A program made the position numbers and the translations under genes. A stretch of 64,000 bases of DNA from Eledone cirrhosa (Eukaryota): the NCBI GenBank assembly GCA_964016885.1, contig OZ024745.1:121458001-121522000 (forward strand), written 5' to 3'. The notes beneath the pieces were generated by a model, which was not told where the DNA came from, did no database searches, and saw only the letters and a list, made by a program, of their open reading frames with translations. Positions 1 to 26,605 of the stretch are shown here, piece after piece; position 1 is the stretch's first letter; every line of letters begins with the position of its first letter.

Positions 1-94
1 ATCAGTGGCAAATACATTCTCGGAATACAGTTTATCACCAATTATTGCTTCACTGGTCTATCTCTCTTTCTTCTTACTGGCATTGCTCCATCAG
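1..94 (+). CDS. SLC6-like exon (TM8), 5' end outside the window
   Basis: Frame from nt 2 reads [31 protein letters not shown]; donor cag|gtaggt. Confidence 0.8.
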
Positions 95-343
95 GTAGGT
101 GTATTTCAACAATCACATCAAAGGAGAAAACACATTTAGATAAAAGTGTATTCAATTACTTAGTATTTTAATTAGGCCCAGTGATGTATGAGAAAAACAT
201 ATTGCTTTATATATCATCATCATCATTTAACGTCCGATTTCTTTGCTTGTAAAGGTTAGATGGGTTTGATCATCTCAGGCAGAGTCAGTACTTTGGCAGA
301 ACTACTCATATCTCTCTCTCCCTCTCTCTCTCTCTCCCTCTCC

Positions 344-381
<38 letters not shown>

Positions 382-3300
382 CTTCATATCTCCAAAATTA
401 TGTCAAATAGTATATGTAACAGCTTGAACGAAAGTGAAAGCTCTCACTTTTCGTAAAGATGGCTGTATTTGTTTATTTATATATGTGTGTGTATGTGACT
501 TAGAAACTGTGTTAAAATTCTATGTATCAGCCATTACGGTTCCCACTTCCCACCCCACCACATTCGGTATACATGCCCGACGCTGTATGCTAACCACTCC
601 CTCGTGAATATATCATAGAACAGACAAGGGGCGGACGGAGGCTCTGTAAACCGCAATGTAGGGCAACTCGTCTAGGAGAGCTACCACTCCGAATAAATTG
701 GTGCGGGGTAGAGAGGTCTCCTAAGTCCAATAAGACAAATTCCCTAGTGCTGGTGGCATGAATAAAAACACCCAGTCTATGCTGTAAAATGGAGGGGTGG
801 ATAGGGCCCCTGAATCCAGTAAGACGACCTCTCTAGTGCTGGTGGCACGAATAAAAGCACCCAGTCCATGCTGTAAAATGGAGGGGTGGATAGGGCCCCT
901 GAGTCTAGTAAGACAACGTCTCTAGTGCTGGTGGCACAAATAAAAGCACCCAGTCCATGCTGTAAAGTGGTGCTGGTGTTAGGAAGGGCATCCAACCAGT
1001 ATAATAAATGCCAAAATTATGAACACAACAAATAAGAATTGCAACAACTGCATCAACAGCAATAACACTAATCATGTTAGGGCTGCACACGGTAGTGGGG
1101 TGGCTGGTGAGGCCATGTGCGAGAACCCCCCGACCGTCATCAAGGAATTGCACAAAAACAACTGCGTAAATAGCAATAACACTAACCATGTTAGGGCTGC
1201 GCACGATAGTAGGGTGGCTAGTGAGGCAATGTGTGAGAACCCCAAGATCGTCATCAGGCAATCACATAACAGGAAAAAGAACAAGACATTGTATCTCAGA
1301 GTTGCCACACTTAATGTTGGCACTCTAACAGGTAGATCTGGTGAGATAGCAGAGATGCTGGAGAGAAAGCATGTGGATGTGTGCTGTGTGCAAGAGGTGA
1401 GATGGAGAGGTGCCTCTGCAAGACTAATTGCAGGCAAACATCGTAGTTATAAGCTTTTCTGGGTGGGTAAGGATGATGGTTTAGGTGGGGTGGGCATATT
1501 ACTGGCTGAAAGATGGATCAATAAGACAATTCCAGATACAAGTAGGTGTACATCAGGGTTCGGTCTTCAGCCCAGTCTTGTTCATTATAGTCCTCCAAGC
1601 CATAACAGAGGAGTTTAAGACTGGCTGCCCATGGGAACTTCTCTATGCTGATGATCTCGTTCTTATAGCAGAATCAGTAGAGGAGCTAGAGAATAAATTC
1701 TGGCTATGGAAACAGTAGTTGGAATCAAGAGGCCTGAGAGTGAACATAACTAAAACAAAAGTGTTTTACAACAGAAGTTCCTACCCCAAAATAAGCCATT
1801 TTATTTAGCCTGTGTTGGTCTAGAAAAGGCCTTTGACAGAGTACCTCAATCTATCATCTGGCAGTCCTTAAGGAAATTAGGTGTAGAAGAATGGCTTGTG
1901 GGAGCAGTGCAAGCAATGTAGAGAGGAGCTGTCAGTAAAGTGAGAGTATGAAGTGTTTTGTGAGGAATTTAGGGTACAGGTAGGACTTCATCAAGGTTTG
2001 GTTCTTAGCCCACTGTTCATCATAGTGCTCCTGGCCATAACAGAGGAGTTTAAAACTGGTTGTCCATGAGAACTTCTTTATGCAAATGATCTGGTCCTTA
2101 TAACTGAAACCATAAAAGAACAAGTTCCGACTATGGAAACAGAATTTGAAATCAAACAGTCTGAGAGTAAACTAGAGTGCTAGTAAGTAGAAAGGATAGG
2201 ACCCTGATTCCTTCAAGGAAGTGGCCCTGCTCAATATGTAAAAAAGGAGTAGGCATGGACTCCATACTATGTACATAATGTAAATTTTGGGTAGACAAGA
2301 GATGTAGTGGTAGACTAACAGGAAAAGCTGACAGGAAAGGAAACTGGGTTTAAGAGCAATCTGTGGTGGTGTGCAAGAGAGAAGACTGCATTGGTACAGA
2401 CATGTGATGCACATGGATGATGAACGCTGGGTCAGGAAATCCCAGTGGAAGGAAGCCATGGTAGGGGTAGACGAAGGAAGACCTGGGCAGATGTGAAGAG
2501 AACTGATCTCAAGATGCTGAGACTCACAGAGATGAGGGAGGAACACATAGCATGTGGAGAGATGGTGTGCTGAAAAGACATTAAAAATTATGATGATAAT
2601 GATGATGATTAGTAAAGGCATGCTGCTGGGCCAAGGTGTTGATTCTATAAGTTTCTGGAAGGTACTGTATTTCCTGGCGCCTAAGACGCTTCGTCCTCGA
2701 GGATGCACCCAAAATTTGACAACCAAAAATTTGAGAAAAAAATAATAAACAACCTTCGTCCTCCAGGAAAAAAGTAGCGCCTTTGGCGCCGGGAAATACA
2801 GTAAATAAAAAGTCAGTCCAACCACATTTGTGGATTTCCTATTGATCACCAAACCAAGGGACGTAACTCTAGCGATACTACTAAACCACCCCAGTTTTTA
2901 CTATTGAAATAATGCAACATCGTATCTGATTGATAACAAAACTCTAGTCATGTTATGTTATGTTTTTGTCCCATTATATTTTTAGATTATCCATTTAGAA
3001 GTGGTACTGGACAGCTTTCTACTCTCATTACCCACATCTCTCCACCGTTTCCTTAACAGACGAGAGTACACAATTGCCATTGTATGCTTTTTCTCACTGT
3101 TGGTCAGTTTAGCATGTGTGTGTCAAGTAAGTATTTCTCTATTATGTCTCTTGCTGTCATTGTTAAACACCCAATCAATTTTTAAGATTACCGTGGTCTA
3201 CTGGATTGGCAGTATTGGTAGAGCGTCAGACACCATGCTTTGCAGCATAGAGTTATGTCGCTTTACGGTTTGAGTTCAAATCCCGCTGGAGTTAATTTTG

Positions 3301-5541
3301 CCTTTCATCCTTACGTGGTTGATAAATTTGAGTACCAGTAATGCACTGGATAATTGCTGGCCTTGTGCCAAAAGTAGAAGCAATTATCATTCTAGCCCTT
3401 TCATTACCATATTTCTATGGAAATACACTGCCTATGATTTTCATTATTATGTAGGTATTTGTAACATAACAACGGTTCCTACATAAAATTATGAGGTGGC
3501 CTCTGTGTGGTCATTTAACCTGCTAAAAATAATAGCCAAACCTTACTCAAATAACACAACCCATTAACATCTTCAAAAAGGGCTGGATACTGCTATATAT
3601 TATAACTTTATTGTATATATTTTTTCAAATGTGTCACATCCAAATTAAACACCTTAGCGTCTGTCTTGGTTGGACAATCGTTATGCATTATTACTCTAGG
3701 GTTAATCATTATTACTCTAGGGTCAATCATTATTACTCTAGGGTCTATCATTATTACTGTAGGGTCTATCTGGACATCAAATCAGAAGACTACAACTGAT
3801 TAAAAAAACTATCATTATTATTATTGTGGATTGGCAGTATCAGTAGAGGGTCGGACGCCATGCTTTGACGCATAGAGTTACGGCCCTTCCCATTCTGAGT
3901 TCAAAGCCCGCCAAGGTTAACTTTGCCTTTCATCCTTATGGGGTCGATAAAATAAAGTACCAGCAATACACTGGGTAATTGCTGGCCTTGTGCCAAAAGT
4001 AGAAACAATTATTATTATTATGAAATAGGGCGGTGGATTAGCAGTATCAGTAGAGGGTCGGACGTCATGCTTTGCAGCATAGAGTTACGGCCCTTTGCGG
4101 TCTGAGTTCAAATTCCGCCAAGGTTAACTTTGCCTTTCATCCTTACGAGGTCGATAAAATAAAGTACCAGCAATGCACTGGGATAATTGCTGGCCTTGTG
4201 CCAAAAGTAGAAACAATTATTATTATTATGAAATCATCCTGCATGCAATCATCTAGTGTCCGAGCATTGCTGACTTTGTTGGTTTATGACAAATACCTGA
4301 TGTTACATGTAGGACAAATCCAGTTATCAACCGAGTCCATCATGAAGATTGTCCTGCCACCTTCTTTTAGTCAAGAAGGGCAGGCTGTTTTTATGTCTTG
4401 TGGCCATAGCAAAAGAGGTTGTATGGTGGACATGCTTGAAAAGCTTGAAGACGAACACTTCCCTCTTTGGCGAAGCTCTGATTAACTTCTTCAGGTTTCC
4501 CTTGAAAGTGGAAAGACAAGAGCTGCCTTCAAAGTAATTTGTTGAAAGGTGAGTAAGAGAAGCAAGCATGGCCCGAGTGAATGGGCTCACTCTGAGTATG
4601 AGCCTGTACATTGGAGGAATACAACTGGGACAGGGCACTTAGAAATCAGGGCATCCATGGTTTTATGGGGATTTTTCCACGAGTGACCCTCAAACATCTC
4701 CCTATTGAGGAACCTTCTTTGTTTTAATTCTATTATCTTCCTTTTTTTTAACATTGTTAAAATTTGTTTACATGCAAAACCCACACCCCAACACACACAC
4801 ATACACACACTATGTTTTCATCCTGTACTGTTTTAATGTTTTTCTTGGTGTAAACCCTTTGTGATTAATCAAGAAATCATTATTATTATTGTTGTTATTA
4901 TCTACTTCCAGGGAGGATTCCATCTGTACACTCTTGTCAATAACTACCTCGATAGATACTTATGTGTCCTCATTCTGATTACAACAGTTCCATTTATCAT
5001 TGCCTATAGTAAGTATCATACAGTCTCTTACATTTATACTCAACTTTCTAGAGCAGAGTTTCTCAAAGTGGGCACACCCCCTTGGGGAGGGAGGCATTGA
5101 GAAGGTCTAGGAGAGTGGTGGGGCCTATGGGGGTGGTAGGGGGTTGGGCGGTAGAAAGGATAATAGTTATTAAATATCAAATTATATATAAATATAGTAA
5201 AATAAATAATGTAAAACAAATGCTCTGAGATGAGGGACGGTGAGGCAAGGCAAAGGTGGTTATCACTATGTTGAGTCATGGTTAGTGTGCGGCCCTCGGC
5301 CGGATGTTTGTGCAGAGAAGGTGTTCAACCTGGTGTGTCTACAATTTATAATTATGTCTGATCTAGAGTTTATGGCAGATTTTAATTTTATATATATATA
5401 TATATATTTTAATTTAATATATATATATATATATTTTAATTTAATATATATATATATATATTTTAATTTTATATATATATATATATATTTTAATTTAATA
5501 TATATATATATATATTTTAATTTAATATATATATATATAGA

Positions 5542-5613
<72 letters not shown>

Positions 5614-7428
5614 AGTGTGACGTGCTGTTACTGTAGATTCACGTAGATTCACGTCTGTAAAGAGGTGTAGAACTAAAGAGAGTGTAAATATAATACTAAA
5701 AGGATGAATTGTTTTGCCTTCCTTACGTTTATTGAGTAGTGACGCACGTTTTTGCTATTGACTAGCTCAAAGTTTCGCTATTGATCAGTTCAAAGTTTGA
5801 TCTGTATCGATCTGGCCCGACTCAGGAATCAAAAATTTATCGGACCACGGCAGAGGTGTGACGAGCTTTTGATTCCTGATCGATACAGATCAAACCATGA
5901 ACTGATCAATAGCGAAACACGCGTCACTACTCAATAAACATAATGAAGACATAACAATTCATCCTTTTACTATTATATATATATATATTTATAGTAAGGG
6001 GTTAACTTTACTATATATATATCATCATCATCATTTTACGTCCGCTTTTCCCTGCTTGCAAGGGTTGGACGGGTCCTATTCAGCACAGCATCTCTCCACT
6101 TGTCACGGTCCTTCATCATCTCCTCGGTGAGCTTCAGCGATCTGAGGTCTGCTCTCACCACCTCCGCCCATGTTTTACGTGGTATACCTCTACTGCGTCT
6201 TCCTTCTACTGGGATTTCTTGGCACTTCTTTACCCAGCGGTTATCCTCCATGAGCATCACATGTCCATACTATCTCAGCCTTCTCTCCTGCACACCACAA
6301 CTTATCCCTCTTATACCAAGTTTCTTTCTCAACTCGTCCATGCTTGGTCATTCACACACATTTACATTGCACATCCAACGGAGCATACTTGTTTCATTTC
6401 TCTCCAGCCGTCGCATATCTTCTGCAGTTGCTGCCCATGTCTCACTACCATGCAAGCATCATATAACTGTCCTTTCGTACGCAGGGAGAAACCCTTCTTT
6501 GTCAACAAAGGAAGCAGCTCCCTAAACTTCTTCCAACCCATCCCTATTCTAGATACTATGGCCTCGGAACACGCCCCCTCCCATGCTAATCTGATCACCT
6601 AGGAACCGGAAGCTATCAACCACTTCTATAGAACCTACCTGCATTGGAAAAATGAGTATCACTGCGATTACTACTGCCAACTTTCCCTGTACATCTACTG
6701 CGTACGTAGTTTTCCCTACCTGTTAGTTTGCCTGCTATCCCACTATATCTCTTGTGTACCCAAGATCTGCATTGCATCCATTTTTGGAATTTATGCCAGT
6801 TCCTTTCCTACATATTGAACAAGGCCATTTCCCCGATGGAATCAGAGTATTGTCTTCTCTTCTACTCATCAACACTTTTGTCTTAGCTATGTTCACTCTC
6901 AGTCCTCTTGATTCCAACTGCTGTTTCCATAGCCAGAATTTATTCTCTAGCTCCTCTACTGATTCTGCTATAGTAAGGGGTTAACCTTACTATATATATA
7001 GTAAGGGGTTAACCGAACAAGGATGTGCGGACCACATAACGGTCTGTCGGAAGTGAAGTAGATAAAAGAATGCATTCAACGACCTGTATAAAGGTGCAAG
7101 CCGGAGCATTATATATCAATAAAAATTCGAGGCAATATTCATTTGGTTTTGGTTTATTAAAATCCATAATGTACTTCCACCAGTCTCCTTAGAGTCACAC
7201 AAGGGGCCGACCATTGTGGAAATAACATCACACGCCTGGTCGGCCCCTGTATCAAGACAAGACAAAAGTAAACCAATTCTGAATATAAAAGTTTTTTTAT
7301 AATATTTCATTGTATTTTAGGTTTACCATTTGAGAAGCTCCGGATGCCATAACTGACAAGACTCAGGGAAATATACATTACAGATTTTAATAAACCAAAA
7401 CCAAATGAATATGGCCTCGAATTTTTAT

Positions 7429-7485
<57 letters not shown>

Positions 7486-10400
7486 TAATTAGAAAGTGAA
7501 CAACACAGTATATAACTACTCCATTACCAAAGGTTTCAGGACACTAGACAATATTAACATATGTCTAGTTCGCTCATCAGATAGAGGGGTTATGAATAGC
7601 TCTGTTTTATATATAGAGCACTCTTTTTACCTTTGCTTTTTCTTCGGAAATACTTAACATATATATATATATCATCATCATCATCATCATCATTTTACAT
7701 CCGCTTTTCCCTGCTTGCAAGGGTTGGATGGGTCCTATTCAGCACAGCATCTCTCCACTTGTCACGGTCCTCCGTCATCTCCTCGGTGAGTCTCAGCGAT
7801 CTGAGGTCTGCTCTCACCACCTCCGCCCATGTCTTTCGTGGTCTACCTCTACTGCGTCTTCCTTCTACTGGGATTTCTTGGCACTTCTTTACCCAGCGGT
7901 CATCCTCCATGCGCATCACATGTCCATACCATCTCAGCCTTCTCTCCTGCACACCACAACTTATATATATACAGCATTTAAAATGTCATATTGATCTTTA
8001 ATACTCTGTGTTTGTTTCTAATTAAACTGAAAAATGTCTACAAGATCAGCTAATTATTAATATTATTATTATTATTGTTATTGTTATTAGTATTATAAGG
8101 CCGGTGGTTTGGCAGTAACGGTAGAGCATCAGACCCCATGCTTTGCAGCATAGGAGTTATGGCCCTTTACGTTCTGAGTCCCGCCAGGTTAACTTTGCCT
8201 TTCATCCTTACGGGGTCGATAAAATAAAGTACCAGTGATGCACTGGGGTAATTGCTGGTGTTGTACCAAAAATAGAAACATTATTATTATTATTATTATT
8301 ATTATAGGAATATTTATGCACTGATGGTATATTACTAACATTATTATATTTTAACTTATCTTTTCACAGTTAAACAAGAATCTCTCCATTTCCCAATTGA
8401 AAGGGCCTGCATGACTATGTGGTTTGGAATAGCACCTCTCAGTGCTGCCGTAAGTTCTCTTTCATCATTGCCATTTAATTATCTTCATCCTCATCACCAC
8501 CTTTCCCGTTTAACATCTATTTTCCATCCTTCCATAGGTTAGATGGGCTATCACATCATGAGGTTAGGCAGGTCGGATGACCACGTCTTGCTCAAACACT
8601 ACATTTTTGGCTTGGTTTTCCATGGCTAGATGCCCATCCTAATGCCAACCCCCTTACAAAATGGACTGGGTGTTTTTGTCGTAGAACTAGTGTGACCACT
8701 TTACAGAATGAATTAGGTGCTTTTTTCATAGCACCAGAACTACCACTTTACAGGATGGACTGGGTGCTTTTACTTTTTTTGTGACACCAGCACTACCACT
8801 TTACAAGGTAGAGTGGATGCTTTTATTTATAACACCAATACAACAACCTTACAGGGTTTATACAAGTTTATACAATATATATCCTGCTTCAGTTAGCTAT
8901 GTTGAAGCAAATATAACTCTTAGCAGAAATATGTATCTACATAAGAATTCATTATATTTTCTAAGATACAATAACATATATTAGATAAGAAAAGGCAAGC
9001 TCCCAGAAAACTGACTTTATAAACCAGCTTCAATTACAAGTTGGAGTTAATTTAACTCCCTTTATACTCTTAATGTCTATAAGAATGGCATTAACATCAC
9101 ATACTCCCATTTAGCACAACCATATATATGTAGATTTGTAGTTAAATAAGGTGAAGGTGCATGGCTTAGTGGTTAGGATGTTCGGCTTATGATTGTAAAG
9201 TTGTGAGTTTGATTCTTGCTGATGCATTGTGTGCTTGAGCAAGACACTTTATTTCACTTTGCTCTAGTCCACTCAGCTGACAATAGAGAGTTGTACCTGT
9301 AATTCAAAGGACCAACCTTGTCACACATTTTGTCATGCTGAATCTCCCTGAGAACTACGTTAAGGGTACATATACCTGTGAAATGTTCAGCCACATGCAT
9401 GTTAATTTCATGAACAGTCTGCTTCATTGTTCAAACAACTGCAACATTTATCGTTGAAACCAATGGAAGTCCTACATGGCTGAGAGTCAGTACAAGTTAG
9501 GAAATTGATAATATGATGGTGCTGGCCTCAGATCTGTGAGCAAGACGGTGACCCAAGCTAGAACTGACTTAGGTATACAGGTTATTAGGGCATCTATTCC
9601 AAACCATAGGAATTAACCCTCATCTGCCCTTAAGGGGTATGTCCAACACATCATCATTTCATTTTACGTCCGCTTTTTCCCTGCTTGCAAGGGTGGGACG
9701 GGAACTGATTCTGGCTTGATTTCTACAGCTGGATGCCCTTCCTAACACCAACCTCATTTACAGTGAGTGCTGGGTGCTTTTTTGCCGTGGCGCCTCCACG
9801 TGGAATGACAGGGACCCCAGTCCCTATCATCTCATTTCTACAGCTGAGTAAACTGGAGCAATGTGAAATAAAGTGTCTTACTCAAGGAAACAACACATCA
9901 CCCGGTCTGAGAATTGAACTCACAACCTTTCGATTGCAAGGCCAATGCTCTAACCACTAAGCCATGTGCCTCCAACACAATTTCATAAAAGACCATTTAC
10001 CTTTCCATGAAGCATACCAAACTCTTCTACTGAAGGTGCTATGGTGCCTCCATGTTTCCCTCCAACAGGTAAGATGTGTGGTTACACTGGGGATAAAGTA
10101 GGTACATGTAACCTCTTGGTGGTATTGGAGTGTCAATGAGTGACCTTCATCTGCCGGGTTAATTATTTACCAATATCTGGGACCGTAACAGATGCTACCA
10201 TCCTTGGTTAGGGTGGACCTGGGAACAACAGCTAAATTAGATGTGAATATTTTGTAAGAGAGATTTATATTTTGTTTCATTCCAGTGTCTGCTGACTTAC
10301 TTCATGATAAGGTATGTGTATGTCACACATGTGGTCAGCTATGATGAACGCTGGGCTAATGGTGTGGGCTGGGCTATTGCTGCTGGACCAATTGTACTTG

Positions 10401-12223
10401 GTATAGGACTTGGCACATTTTTTGTTCTCCACAAGCAGAAAGGAACATTAAAAGAAGTAAGTAATTCAGAGTTTATCTTACAATATTACTCATGACTGAA
10501 TTAAATTGTTTATTCATTCTTTTTCTCCTGCTGCAGAACCTGTATATACCATAAAGATAAAATAGGTTACACAAAACAAATTATACATGTATGCTGTATA
10601 CCATGCTTATATACATGTTGAAAAACCCACCTTTTGTACACATATTAATTTTTTTGTTTGCTGAAAAATATGCAAATGTATGCACATGACAGAGCTCAGT
10701 GTGAATAATAGTTGATGGAAACAATGCTGATGTATTTTGAACAGGCTGTATCTGTAATTTGAAGACTTAGTTATATCACCCACAATATAATGCTGAGTTT
10801 GTTTGAAGATTATGTTAACCTCTTGATATGCTGCGTATATTTTACACAGCTACAGTTACTGAGCTGGATTTTTTTTTTCAGTAAAATTACTATTTTGATT
10901 GACAAACATCATATCAATAAACTAGTAACCCCTTCTAGCTTTGAAGTTATGAACGAGTTCATAATTTTGAAGTTATGAACTGTTGGAAAGGAGTTCAAAC
11001 ATGTTAGGATGAGTTATCTCATCTACGACACTGAAGAAGTTAAGGATACAAGTGTCTGTGGAATGGTCAGATAACTACACTATAATTCAATGAGTTGGTA
11101 GTTCTGTTGATCAAACAGCTGGAACTCTAATTGTCAAACCTGGCATCAGCTGTTTATAACTATGGTCTGTTTCATGGGTATTCTTCTGAAAGCAATGAAT
11201 CTTGTTTTAGTTTTGAACTCATGAAGATGGGAAAAAAGACAAAATAACAATGCCATGAATTATCATCATCATTGTCGTCATCATCATCATCGTTTAACGT
11301 CTATCTTCCATGCTATTGAACAGAATGCTTTGAGACAATGTTTAACAGCAGGAGCCTCTCCCTTTTAGTTGCCTCTAACAACACACAAGGATGTGTTGTA
11401 CTTATTCTAAAAAACAGTATACACATGGGAGATACACCCAACACAGGTTCACAATCTCTTATCTGAAAACCTTGGGATCAAACACTTTGGATATCGGAAT
11501 GGAAAATTTTTAACGTAGATTTTAAAGTTTTTTAGATAAAACATTACAGGGGACAGAGTGGCTCAGTGGTAGAGCGCTCAGCTTGTGGCCGCAAGGTCAC
11601 AAGTTTGCGCCTCAAACCCGGCAGTTACTCGGTGAGGGAGGTAGCGCTCTCTTGTCAACAAAAAATAAACAAAATATCTGTGAACAGCAGAGGCGACGTG
11701 TGTCTGACTGGTAGGAGCACTGAGACACAACTGTGTGACCTGGGTTGACTGTGGGTCATTGCAGGTCAAGTTTGGCTCCAAACGTGAGCTTTGGTGTGTA
11801 GACAACATCCTGGAAAAAATGTTCGGTTTAGGAACTCTTCGGTTTTCAGAATTTCGACTAAAAGATTGTGAACATGTATATAGTTGCTGCATGTAGACAA
11901 TTTGTTTTAAATACTTCATATCACTGAATCATATTTGATCTAATCTTATTTTCTTTAATTTGTCAATTTTTTTATGACAGAGATTCCTGCAGTCACTTCG
12001 TATAGAAACAACCATATTGGAAAGCAACCAATCTGATTTTGACTCAGTGGAAACTGGAGATACACCATTAAACAGATCACCTCCAACAGAGATGAAGAAA
12101 AGACCTCTTGATTTCGACATTGAGACCGTCGATGATATATGTGCTGATGAAGAGATTAACACAGTGAAGATTGTTGAGGTCACTCTGCAGAGCAAAGACA
12201 AATCAAAGGCTGCAGATGTATGA
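1..12223 (+). CDS. Divergent SLC6 / NSS family transporter, 3' part (TM8-TM12 and C-tail); join(<2..94,2986..3126,4912..5008,8370..8449,10286..10456,11981..12223)
   Basis: Six GT-AG exons splice in frame (phases 0,0,1,0,0): [31 protein letters not shown]|[11 protein letters not shown]...[17 protein letters not shown]|[12 protein letters not shown]...IIAY|IKQE...[11 protein letters not shown]|[10 protein letters not shown]...[21 protein letters not shown]...KQKGTLKE|RFLQSLR...AADV*. This matches SLC6 hallmarks (SP-x-W/I before TM8, Q|GG-x-Y at TM10, WAxxxGW at TM12, KGTLKER). Confidence 0.85.
575..2610 (+). mobile_element. Degenerate RTE-clade LINE (5' UTR, AP endonuclease start, deleted and duplicated RT fragments, (ATG)n tail)
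   Basis: [39 protein letters not shown] (APE); [11 protein letters not shown]...LLYADDLVL (RT); stops and frameshifts; ~87 bp and 120 bp internal tandem duplications. Confidence 0.9.
2663..2803. mobile_element. Tc1/mariner-pogo type MITE
   Basis: TA-CTGTATTTCCTGGCGCC ... GGCGCCGGGAAATACAG-TA; related copy in the opposite orientation at 39770..39941. Confidence 0.8.
2986..3126 (+). CDS. SLC6-like exon (TM9)
   Basis: tttttag|att...caa|gtaagt, 141 nt. Confidence 0.85.
3203..4228 (+). mobile_element. Three copies of a tRNA-derived Nin-domain SINE (3203-3388, 3828-4020, 4035-4228)
   Basis: A box TGGCAGTATYRGTAG, B box GAGTTCAAATCC, core TTTGCCTTTCATCCTTACGGGGTCGATAAAATAAAGTACCAG, (ATT)n tail. 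Further copies near 8105, 23700, 25310(-), 27480, 28330, 32321, 34140(-), 37200(-), 40130, 41736, 42070, 44790, 62990, 63200(-). Confidence 0.9.
4912..5008 (+). CDS. SLC6-like exon (TM10)
   Basis: ttccag|gga...tata|gtaagt, 97 nt, [32 protein letters not shown]. Confidence 0.85.
5688..5978. mobile_element. Foldback / MITE-like element in a (TA)n tract
   Basis: Inverted arms over 100 bp, e.g. TAAAAGGATGAATTGTT / AACAATTCATCCTTTTA and TTTATTGAGTAGTGACGC / GCGTCACTACTCAATAAA. Confidence 0.7.
6021..6970 (-). mobile_element. 5'-truncated RTE LINE with a ~30 bp target-site duplication
   Basis: RT C-terminal peptides ([20 protein letters not shown]-like), (CAT)n tail; TATAGTAAGGGGTTAACYTTACTATATATAT on both sides. 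Confidence 0.9.
7117..7430. mobile_element. MITE with 57 bp TIRs inserted in (TA)n
   Basis: 7117-7173 is the reverse complement of 7374-7430 with 3 mismatches; inner inverted repeat AGGGGCCGACCA / TGGTCGGCCCCT. Confidence 0.8.
7512..7593 (-). ncRNA. Type I hammerhead ribozyme candidate
   Basis: Minus strand: CUCUAU-CUGAUGA-[stem II including ACUAGACA/UGUCUAGU]-GAA-ACC UUU GGU-A^AUGGAG. Stem I is 6 bp, a 2x2 loop, then 5 bp. Confidence 0.75.
7671..7963 (-). mobile_element. RTE LINE 3' fragment
   Basis: [22 protein letters not shown]...[11 protein letters not shown]; (CAT)n tail. Confidence 0.9.
8370..8449 (+). CDS. SLC6-like exon (IL5/TM11)
   Basis: ttttcacag|tt...gcc|gtaagt, 80 nt, restores the phase. 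Confidence 0.8.
8485..8830 (-). mobile_element. Non-autonomous RTE-related SINE-like element
   Basis: (CAT)n-TTTAACRTC tail plus the GGATGCCCTTCCTAA block shared with the RTE 5' UTR near 980; relatives at 9650, 20300, 26233-26420, 48615-48850, 55602-55850. Confidence 0.7.
9152..9475 (+). mobile_element. Second tRNA-derived SINE family
   Basis: TGGCTTAGTGGTTAG A box, GAGTTYRATTC B box, TTGAGCAAGACACTTTATTTCAC core; relatives at 9835-9972(-), 28863, 36843-37130, 57305-57830. Confidence 0.8.
10286..10456 (+). CDS. SLC6-like exon (TM12)
   Basis: ttccag|tgt...gaa|gtaagt, 171 nt, contains [10 protein letters not shown] and KGTLKE. Confidence 0.88.
10815..11043. mobile_element. piggyBac-like (TTAA) MITE
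   Basis: TTAACCTCTT...GAAGAAGTTAA ends; related copy at about 31727-32000. Confidence 0.5.
11443..11878. mobile_element. Tigger/pogo-like MITE containing a tRNA(His)-like SINE head (~11549-11760)
   Basis: CAGGTTCACAATCTCTTATCTGAAA / TTTCGACTAAAAGATTGTGAACATG-TA imperfect TIRs; internal GTGGCTCAGTGGTAGAGCG...TTGTGGCCGCA. Confidence 0.6.
11981..12223 (+). CDS. SLC6-like terminal exon (acidic cytoplasmic tail)
   Basis: tttatgacag|aga, [21 protein letters not shown]...AADV then TGA. Confidence 0.8.
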
Positions 12224-26389: not shown

Positions 26390-26422
<33 letters not shown>

Positions 26423-26456
26423 TATAAGATCAAAAGATGGTTAAAAGAGTTCCATG

Positions 26457-26527
26457 TATTTTATTATGTGCATTTCAAAAACAAATATCATCATGGGATG
26501 ATACTTGCGTTCTCATCAGATAAAATA
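26457..26527 (-). ncRNA. Type I hammerhead ribozyme candidate
   Basis: Minus strand: UAUUUUAU-CUGAUGA-16 bp stem II (one mismatch, CCAU loop)-GAA-AUGCACAU-A^AUAAAAUA. Stem I is a perfect 8 bp. Confidence 0.78.
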
Positions 26528-26605
26528 GGGAGACATGATATGAAGTTTAAAAAACACTTGCGAGCAGTGAAGTGTTAAATCTACATATGAAAAATAAAAT
26601 AAGAT

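What the first reader, a model, noticed from the sequence alone, without database searches (positions are those of the whole stretch)
7512..7593. Hammerhead 1: extended stem I with internal loop, GUA site, inside an SLC6 intron
The minus strand has a real 3 bp stem III (ACC-UUU-GGU), a long stem II and a 6+5 bp stem I with a 2x2 internal loop, the geometry that allows loop 1-loop 2 tertiary contacts. Predicted cleavage is between 7525 and 7524. The stem II closing pair is G-U rather than G-C and is followed by a C-C mismatch, which suggests some decay.
Basis: partly seen in the sequence, partly recalled or inferred. Interest (0 to 1): 0.72.

Follow-up and report, generated by a model that had tools for sequence, protein, structure and literature searches.

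The report
Hammerhead from a Penelope-like retrotransposon end
This is a leftover end-piece of a jumping gene (a Penelope-like retrotransposon, likely of the Hydra group) that carries a hammerhead ribozyme sequence predicted to cut the element's own RNA; near-identical pieces occur at about 1,900 places in this genome, and this one lies backwards in an intron, so it would not cut the host gene's message.

Summary
The motif is real and the coordinates are right: type I hammerhead on the minus strand, core intact, 3-bp stem III, predicted cut at 7525/7524. It is not a one-off intronic ribozyme. It is one of at least 1,688-1,877 dispersed copies. In 8 of 30 fetched ORF loci the same segment runs into a decayed reverse transcriptase/endonuclease ORF with Hydra-clade Penelope marks (RWK, DKT, CxCX5C). 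The window copy (7482-7659) is a 5'-truncated pseudo-LTR with an inverted 65-nt tail, inserted in (TA)n, antisense in an intron of a divergent SLC6-like gene. The 'decay' reading is wrong: no copy has G10.1-C11.1 (0 of 113; no C11.1 in 100 more), C-C is the family norm, and this copy differs from its subfamily majority at only two stem-compatible sites. A loop 1-loop 2 contact is unsupported, because stem II is about 13 bp. Hydra-clade hammerheads with a real stem III and a mismatched first stem II pair are already listed (PMC8557442, File S2). The only unusual part is the 2x2 mismatch at the foot of stem II. Cleavage is untested. Known kind; low interest.

The parts
7482..7659 (-). Whole insertion: 5'-truncated pseudo-LTR of a Penelope-like element with an inverted tail at its 5' end
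   Evidence: Matches both arms of the ORF-bearing copy L236 at 84-91%; copy anatomy
7482..7598 (-). Pseudo-LTR fragment: hammerhead plus 44 nt to the 'short' 3' end
   Evidence: 49 of 132 copies end exactly 44 nt after the cut site, 70 of 132 within 25-55 nt
7512..7593 (-). Type I hammerhead motif; predicted cleavage 7525/7524 after GUA
7574..7580 (-). Core strand C3-A9 (CUGAUGA)
   Evidence: Intact (U or C at position 7) in 100 of 113 copies
7538..7573 (-). Stem II, about 13 bp with a bulge, opening with G-U and C-C; first firm pair G7571-C7540
   Evidence: pair 27-49 is U-A in 37 and C-G in 23 of 66 rows
7525..7537 (-). G12-A15.1, 3-bp stem III with UUU loop, U16.1 and A17
7595..7659 (+). 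65-nt tail, here inverted; in full elements it follows the short end and precedes the ORF; 4 nt (7595-7598) are shared with the forward arm at the junction
   Evidence: long ends at +109/+113 in 31 of 132 copies
7421..7481 (.). (TA)n target, 3' side of the element
   Evidence: Sequence
7659..7672 (.). (TA)n target, 5' side of the element
   Evidence: Sequence
5009..8369 (+). Host intron of a divergent SLC6-like gene (exons 2986-3126, 4912-5008, 8370-8449, 10286-10456); the element is antisense

Best explanation
The motif is the hammerhead carried in the pseudo-LTR of a Penelope-like retrotransposon family, likely of the Hydra clade, and this copy is a short, promoter-less dead insertion lying antisense in an intron. 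Shown: about 1,700-1,900 copies; the order upstream AT-rich stretch, hammerhead, short end, tail, ATG, RT, linker, endonuclease in longer copies; two fixed 3' ends; inverted partial arms; (TA)n flanks. Inferred from known PLE biology: in the parent element the ribozyme would cut tandem or read-through precursor RNA after GUA, perhaps only with help from the element's protein. The protein would nick (TA)n DNA and start reverse transcription at either of two sites, 44 and about 109 nt after the cut site. One start at the long site, stopped at a 4-nt microhomology, and one at the short site, stopped 5 nt above stem I, would give exactly this insertion. The odd stem II foot was inherited from the active master copies and is not damage.
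For: Copy number: 1,688 and 1,877 exact pattern matches, controls 0. ORF linkage: L050 and L111 run from hammerhead segment and tail into an RT ORF and are 80% identical over 1.58 kb. 8 of the 30 fetched ORF loci carry the segment in sense just upstream, 81-91% identical to the window. L236 shows inverted tail+pLTR, pLTR, ORF; L241 has a pLTR on both sides of the ORF. Motifs RWK, SDKTK, FDIVDFY, YRDDG and CSCRNAGEC (read) are the Hydra marks of PMC8557442 section 11. Eleven divergent pairs within 300 nt among the first 100 listed matches and no convergent pair (by eye). Tail on one arm only in 20 of 26 arm pairs (loose match, one locus twice). Two sister families with intact 712-719-aa frames (60-66% aa identity to this family's frame) carry homologous hammerheads in their pLTRs. 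Between subfamilies the core changes only at position 7, and one stem II pair switches U-A to C-G.
Against: No cleavage or RNA data. No intact ORF of this family among 126 scored matches (longest open frame 350 aa). No tree with reference Hydra sequences was built. Pfam gave no RT or GIY-YIG hit for the sister and distant Hydra-type frames. The tail is about 65 nt against the 30-40 nt described, and sister units are 4.1-4.6 kb against 'generally <3 kb'. Covariation is thin: 3 of 28 pairs change on both sides, no more than shuffles (382 of 500 as high), and the 30 doubly changed cells come mostly from one inherited event. ViennaRNA puts the hammerhead fold 1.8 kcal/mol above the minimum, 2.4% of the ensemble, with stem III pairs at 0.34-0.37.
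Confidence: 0.9

Rival explanations
1. The family's hammerhead is a vestige: the 2x2 mismatch under the core killed or crippled it, and the element spread without needing cleavage.
For: No G10.1-C11.1 in any copy and C-C next to it. This pair is called the most conserved after A15.1-U16.1 (PMC3088659). In the anole PLE, ribozyme mutants did not affect insertion in vitro, and Naiad PLEs lack hammerheads. A huge Hydra-type family in this genome has no recognisable hammerhead in its unit.
Against: Subfamily majorities differ at up to 12 of 83 sites, yet only position 7 of the core changes; the core and a G at the third stem II position also hold in two sister families 60-66% identical in protein. 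Mismatched first pairs are usual in Hydra hammerheads (U-U in 14 of 26 rows of File S2).
Confidence: 0.3
2. A non-autonomous retrozyme: short tandem units with one hammerhead each that give circular RNAs.
For: Most copies are short and ORF-less; animal retrozymes carry type I hammerheads and are argued to derive from PLE pLTRs (bioRxiv 2026.07.22.740005, abstract and introduction).
Against: No short head-to-tail arrays in the first 100 listed matches; near neighbours are inverted. The three same-strand repeats checked (3.5-5.5 kb) are duplications of mixed repeat DNA without a PLE ORF. 5' ends vary and long copies run into an ORF.
Confidence: 0.04
3. A domesticated intronic ribozyme that regulates the SLC6-like gene.
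For: It is intronic, complete, and only two changes from its subfamily majority.
Against: It is on the strand opposite the gene, so it is absent from the pre-mRNA. It is one of about 1,900 copies, in a (TA)n target. Copies of its subfamily average 4.3 changes in 83 nt, so two is unremarkable.
Confidence: 0.03

Closest known systems
Hydra-clade Penelope-like elements and their hammerheads (Craig et al. 2021, PMC8557442; closest listed family Hydra-1_Obim)
   Same: C-terminal endonuclease PLE with RWK, DKT, CxCX5C; (TA)n targets; type I hammerhead near the 3' end with a real 3-4 bp stem III (3 bp + UUU loop in Penelope-2_HM and -5_HM); first stem II pair often not G-C (U-U in 14 of 26 rows, G-U in 3). 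The ORF start resembles Hydra-1_Obim (by eye).
   Different: A different family: stem II is about 13 bp against 3-7 bp; the second position is also mismatched (C-C); stem I is 6+5 bp with a 2x2 loop; tail about 65 nt; long low-complexity 3' region. The Hydra-1_Obim hammerhead has another sequence.
Minimal PLE hammerheads of metazoans (Cervera and de la Pena 2014, PMC4209133)
   Same: Located in pLTRs; thousands of solo copies and opposite-strand pairs 100-700 bp apart; long helix II.
   Different: Those have no or a palindromic helix III, are thought to work as dimers, and keep G10.1-C11.1 with one extra nucleotide before it. This one has a monomer-type 3-bp stem III and no G10.1-C11.1.
Poseidon_Ac of the green anole (Frangieh et al. 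2024, PMC11167929)
   Same: Two reverse-transcription start sites define an optional tail; AT-rich targets; hammerhead upstream of the start sites.
   Different: Other clade. There the ORF starts inside the hammerhead and the tail lies in the ORF; here the ATG lies about 220 nt after the cut site. That ribozyme cleaved only with protein; here untested.
Canonical type I hammerheads (Schistosoma type) and non-LTR retrozymes
   Same: Topology, core, 6-bp stem I followed by an internal loop.
   Different: Helix II is 4 bp there and its loop docks on loop 1; here loop 2 is far out. No tandem arrangement. No Rfam match.

Membership tests
Type I hammerhead ribozyme | Core CUGANGA, GAA, A15.1-U16.1, H17 | tested here: met
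   Window intact. Copies: 5' core 100 of 113, GAAA 110, UA 109 (part of the set was picked on an exact 3' half).
Type I hammerhead ribozyme | Three helices, stem I open | tested here: met
   89% of cells paired against 29-53% for slid registers; one clear compensated pair; rows were pre-selected for an intact core and stem III.
Type I hammerhead ribozyme | G10.1-C11.1 pair (consensus, not absolute) | tested here: not met
   0 of 113; no C at 11.1 in 100 listed matches. Natural U-U exceptions are known.
Type I hammerhead ribozyme | Self-cleavage after H17 | not testable with these tools
   Needs an in vitro assay or RNA ends.
Canonical (Schistosoma-like) extended type I hammerhead | 4-bp helix II whose loop docks on loop 1 | tested here: not met
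   Stem II about 13 bp. The 2x2 stem I loop stays unpaired in all five subfamily majorities but is not kept in the sister families.
Hydra-clade PLE | Single ORF, RT then C-terminal GIY-YIG-type endonuclease, downstream of the pLTR | tested here: met
   Decayed ORF in L234-L242 aligns in pieces along the intact sister frame at mostly 47-79%. Domains were read from motifs; Pfam gave no hit.
Hydra-clade PLE | RWK, DKT and CxCX5C motifs | tested here: met
   RWK, DKT in L050; CSCRNAGEC in L236; all three in 11 of 11 sister frames of 700 aa or more.
Hydra-clade PLE | No CCHH motif in the endonuclease | not tested
   No alignment to reference endonucleases was made.
Hydra-clade PLE | Insertion in (TA)n | tested here: met
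   Window flanks and most copies printed.
Hydra-clade PLE | Hammerhead in the pLTR; inverted 5'-truncated arm; tail at one end | tested here: met
   The tail is about 65 nt, longer than the 30-40 nt described.
Hydra-clade PLE | Generally shorter than 3 kb | tested here: inconclusive
   No clean full unit of this family; sister units are 4.1-4.6 kb from hammerhead to hammerhead.
Hydra-clade PLE | RT phylogeny within the clade | not tested
   Reference sequences were seen only as supplement text; no tree.
Non-LTR retrozyme | Short tandem units, each with a hammerhead, no ORF | tested here: not met

The most novel reading that the evidence does not exclude
A natural hammerhead lineage in which the foot of stem II is a free 2x2 internal loop (N-C opposite C-W) that drifted through C-A, A-A, A-U and G-U while the core, stem III and a G-C pair two steps out stayed fixed, and which still cleaves, alone or with the Penelope protein. 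That would widen the hammerhead consensus at its most conserved pair, give a natural mutational series at the G10.1 position, and mean that Rfam-type searches miss thousands of working ribozymes in such genomes.
Probability: 0.3. Interest if true: 0.5.

Novelty: new member of a known kind. Interest (0 to 1): 0.25.

Why it matters
For the host gene it probably does not matter: the copy is antisense and one of about 1,900. For ribozyme work the family is a modest resource: successive subfamilies and two intact-looking sister families give a ready series of natural stem II junctions (G-U, A-U, A-A, C-A, U-A, A-G), and the intact sister ORFs allow a test of the open question whether PLE hammerheads need the element's protein. 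It also shows that a missing G10.1-C11.1 pair should not be read as decay in Hydra-clade elements.

Tried and rejected
Rfam: no hammerhead family at gathering score or at E<=10. Two giant PLE families first met beside copies were tested as partners and rejected: the 784-aa Hydra-type family (neighbour by nesting in the same TA tract) and a family of about 1,155 aa with a Neptune-like linker; neither carries this hammerhead. Same-strand repeats at C1:52.92 Mb, C1:157.49 Mb and C28:37.02 Mb are not PLE tandems. Walking upstream through the low-complexity region gave no ORF; the ORF was found downstream of the tail. Pfam on single host exons and on two PLE frames gave nothing over cut-off; PF00209 listed no match at this locus. 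Earlier findings: none. The constrained fold of the second window hammerhead used the wrong stem III spacing and is disregarded. Paper searches: searches listed no paper on this family or on a C-C second pair; subscription journals are not covered. Passages of PMC11300833, PMC2837043 and PMC11014351 gave nothing on activity of 10.1/11.1 variants. No large protein search, fold or complex job was run, as motif and linkage evidence settled the origin.

Full report
1. Observation. My descriptor finds 2 motifs in the window against 0.02 per shuffle (100 shuffles). Rfam does not detect it. ViennaRNA supports stem I (pair probabilities 0.75-0.98 for 7593-7512) but puts the full hammerhead fold 1.8 kcal/mol above the minimum, at 2.4% of the ensemble; with flanks it falls to 0.8%. 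Such models ignore core and tertiary contacts (own knowledge), so this neither shows nor excludes activity.

2. It is a repeat. The window lies in a 3.0-Gb animal genome. A DNA search gave 1,083 candidates, 40 scored, with matches 86-97% identical. Exact patterns from the 3' half match 1,688 and 1,877 times, reversed controls 0; these are lower bounds and include 5'-truncated copies and both arms of inverted pairs. Copies share a plan: a variable length of AT-rich upstream sequence, the hammerhead, then one of two 3' ends, then mostly (TA)n or (CA)n. Of 132 copies aligned (134 given), 70 end 25-55 nt after the cut site (49 at exactly 44), 44 end at 100-135 nt (31 at 109 or 113), 8 run on and 10 end elsewhere. 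Among the first 100 listed matches, 11 pairs lie within 300 nt, all divergent (by eye). The extra 65 nt sit on one arm only in 20 of 26 arm pairs (loose match). This is the pseudo-LTR, inverted-arm and tail signature of Penelope-like elements (PMC8557442 passages; PMC11167929 main text).

3. The parent element. Two giant PLE families met beside copies proved to be neighbours, not partners. Two copies, L050 and L111, continue past the tail into the same decayed ORF, 80% identical over 1.58 kb, with RWK, DKT, FDIVDFY and YRDDG. Of the 30 best ORF loci fetched (43 matches), 8 carry the hammerhead segment in sense just upstream, 81-91% identical to the window; several more have an inverted arm or only the tail. 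L236 reads inverted tail+pLTR, pLTR, ATG, RT, CSCRNAGEC linker, endonuclease; L241 has a pLTR on both sides. RWK, DKT, CxCX5C and (TA)n targets are the marks given for the Hydra clade (PMC8557442 section 11). No intact frame of this family was among 126 scored matches; intact 708-719-aa frames belong to two sister families at 60-66% identity, whose pLTRs carry homologous hammerheads. The family looks extinct, with copies about 4-6 changes per 83 nt from their subfamily majority. The ORF start resembles Hydra-1_Obim by eye, so the host is likely a cephalopod; this was not tested.

4. The window copy. 7482-7598 (minus) is the pLTR from 5 nt above stem I to the short end; 7595-7659 is the tail in inverted orientation, sharing 4 nt at the junction; both flanks are (TA)n. 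It lies in intron 5009-8369 of a plus-strand gene whose exons splice in frame and weakly match SLC6 transporters in order (PF00209 listed no match here). The ribozyme strand is therefore not in the pre-mRNA. Its upstream neighbour on the minus strand is a truncated LINE 3' end (7680-7964; family label from my reading of the sequence).

5. Not decay. In 113 copies reaching the 5' core (BLAST-picked; a few are duplicates or inversion junctions, not removed) the first stem II position is G-U 44, C-A 32, A-U 23, A-A 8, C-U 3, G-A 3, G-C 0, and the next is C-C in 99. In 100 genome matches taken in order along one chromosome, 11.1 is A 73, U 27, C 0, and 11.2 is C in 94. The third position is G-C in 71 of 88 core-intact copies. 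The window copy differs from the G-U subfamily majority at 2 of 83 sites, both compatible with stem II. Sister families open stem II with U-A (C-A in two older copies) or A-G, also with G at the third position. File S2 of PMC8557442 (read) lists 26 Hydra rows: U-U in 14 and G-U in 3, all with stem III of 3 bp or more. PMC3088659 (passages) notes a natural U10.1-U11.1 start and calls this the most conserved pair after A15.1-U16.1. A mismatched first pair is thus a known clade habit; the added C-C is what I did not find listed.

6. Structure support and its limits. On 68 aligned copies of modal length (66 distinct; 68 of the 88 core-intact hits, so selected for core and stem III) 89% of cells pair, against 29-53% in slid registers. 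One stem II pair is U-A in 37 and C-G in 23. Only 3 of 28 pairs change on both sides, no more than shuffles give. The better sign of selection is that subfamily majorities differ at up to 12 of 83 sites while the core changes only at position 7. The 2x2 stem I loop stays unpaired in all five majorities but is not kept in the sisters. Canonical type I docking uses a 4-bp helix II (PMC4209133, parts 1-2 of 4 read); here loop 2 is about 13 bp out, so any contact would have to use the stem II bulge. Untested.

7. Mechanism. Shown: anatomy, linkage, two ends, target, orientation. Inferred from the anole element: nicking of AT-rich DNA and reverse transcription from two internal start sites, which would give the short and long ends and, with one aborted product inverted, this insertion. 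Inferred from PMC4209133: the hammerhead processes precursor RNA of the parent. With a real stem III it could act as a monomer; with the weak stem II foot it may be slow or need the element's protein. I put origin at 0.9; activity of the RNA alone at about even odds.

8. Verdict. A real hammerhead, rightly drawn, wrongly read as decayed and as a feature of the SLC6 intron. It is a new family member of a known kind, with one small structural oddity worth a cheap assay. Papers seen: PMC4209133 (parts 1-2), PMC11167929 (parts 1-2), PMC8557442 (passages, section 11, supplement parts 1-2 and search hits; 1 of 9 figure pages held no text, and the HHR alignment figures of PMC4209133 were not seen and may list similar junctions), bioRxiv 2026.07.22.740005 (part 1; supplements closed), PMC3088659, PMC11300833, PMC2837043, PMC11014351 (passages).

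Noticed in passing
window 26421-26545 (minus; core at 26519): A second type I hammerhead of another dispersed family, 88% identical to copies in L261 and similar to ones in L208 and L232. Those have a palindromic stem III; the window copy has one change that breaks the palindrome, so this one may really be decayed.
   Followed up: partly
L092 3256-6787; G000 C1:437.20 Mb: A very large Hydra-type PLE family (61,334 first-look candidates, shared in part with relatives; intact 784-aa frames in 3,531-bp tandem arrays; RWR, DKT, CxCX5C) shows no hammerhead in its unit by relaxed scan or Rfam, although PMC8557442 says hammerheads are universal in Hydra elements.
   Followed up: partly
L198; G000 C1:86.06 Mb: Another very large PLE family (25,786 candidates) with frames of about 1,155 aa and a Neptune-like cysteine linker; my strict scan found no convincing hammerhead in 36 loci.
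   Followed up: partly
L261-L270: Two sister Hydra families with intact 712-719-aa frames and near-identical hammerheads between copies, so probably recently active; 70% identical to each other.
   Followed up: partly
L216 44-700: Three copies of another hammerhead-like motif at 310-nt spacing, a retrozyme-like tandem.
   Followed up: no
window 5640-5990: Long imperfect inverted repeat between (TA)n tracts (weak Rfam hairpin hit at 5776-5914); may be another inverted PLE end or a MITE.
   Followed up: no
window 6021-6972 and 7680-7964: Two 3' ends of the same LINE, 96% identical over 285 nt, both on the minus strand and ending in (GAT)n.
   Followed up: no
window 2664-2802: Short element with terminal inverted repeats of about 18 nt, MITE-like (sequence).
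   Followed up: no
window 1-10456 and 36 kb upstream: The host SLC6-like gene is very divergent: the motifs read in its exons depart from typical family members and the Pfam genome search missed it.
   Followed up: partly
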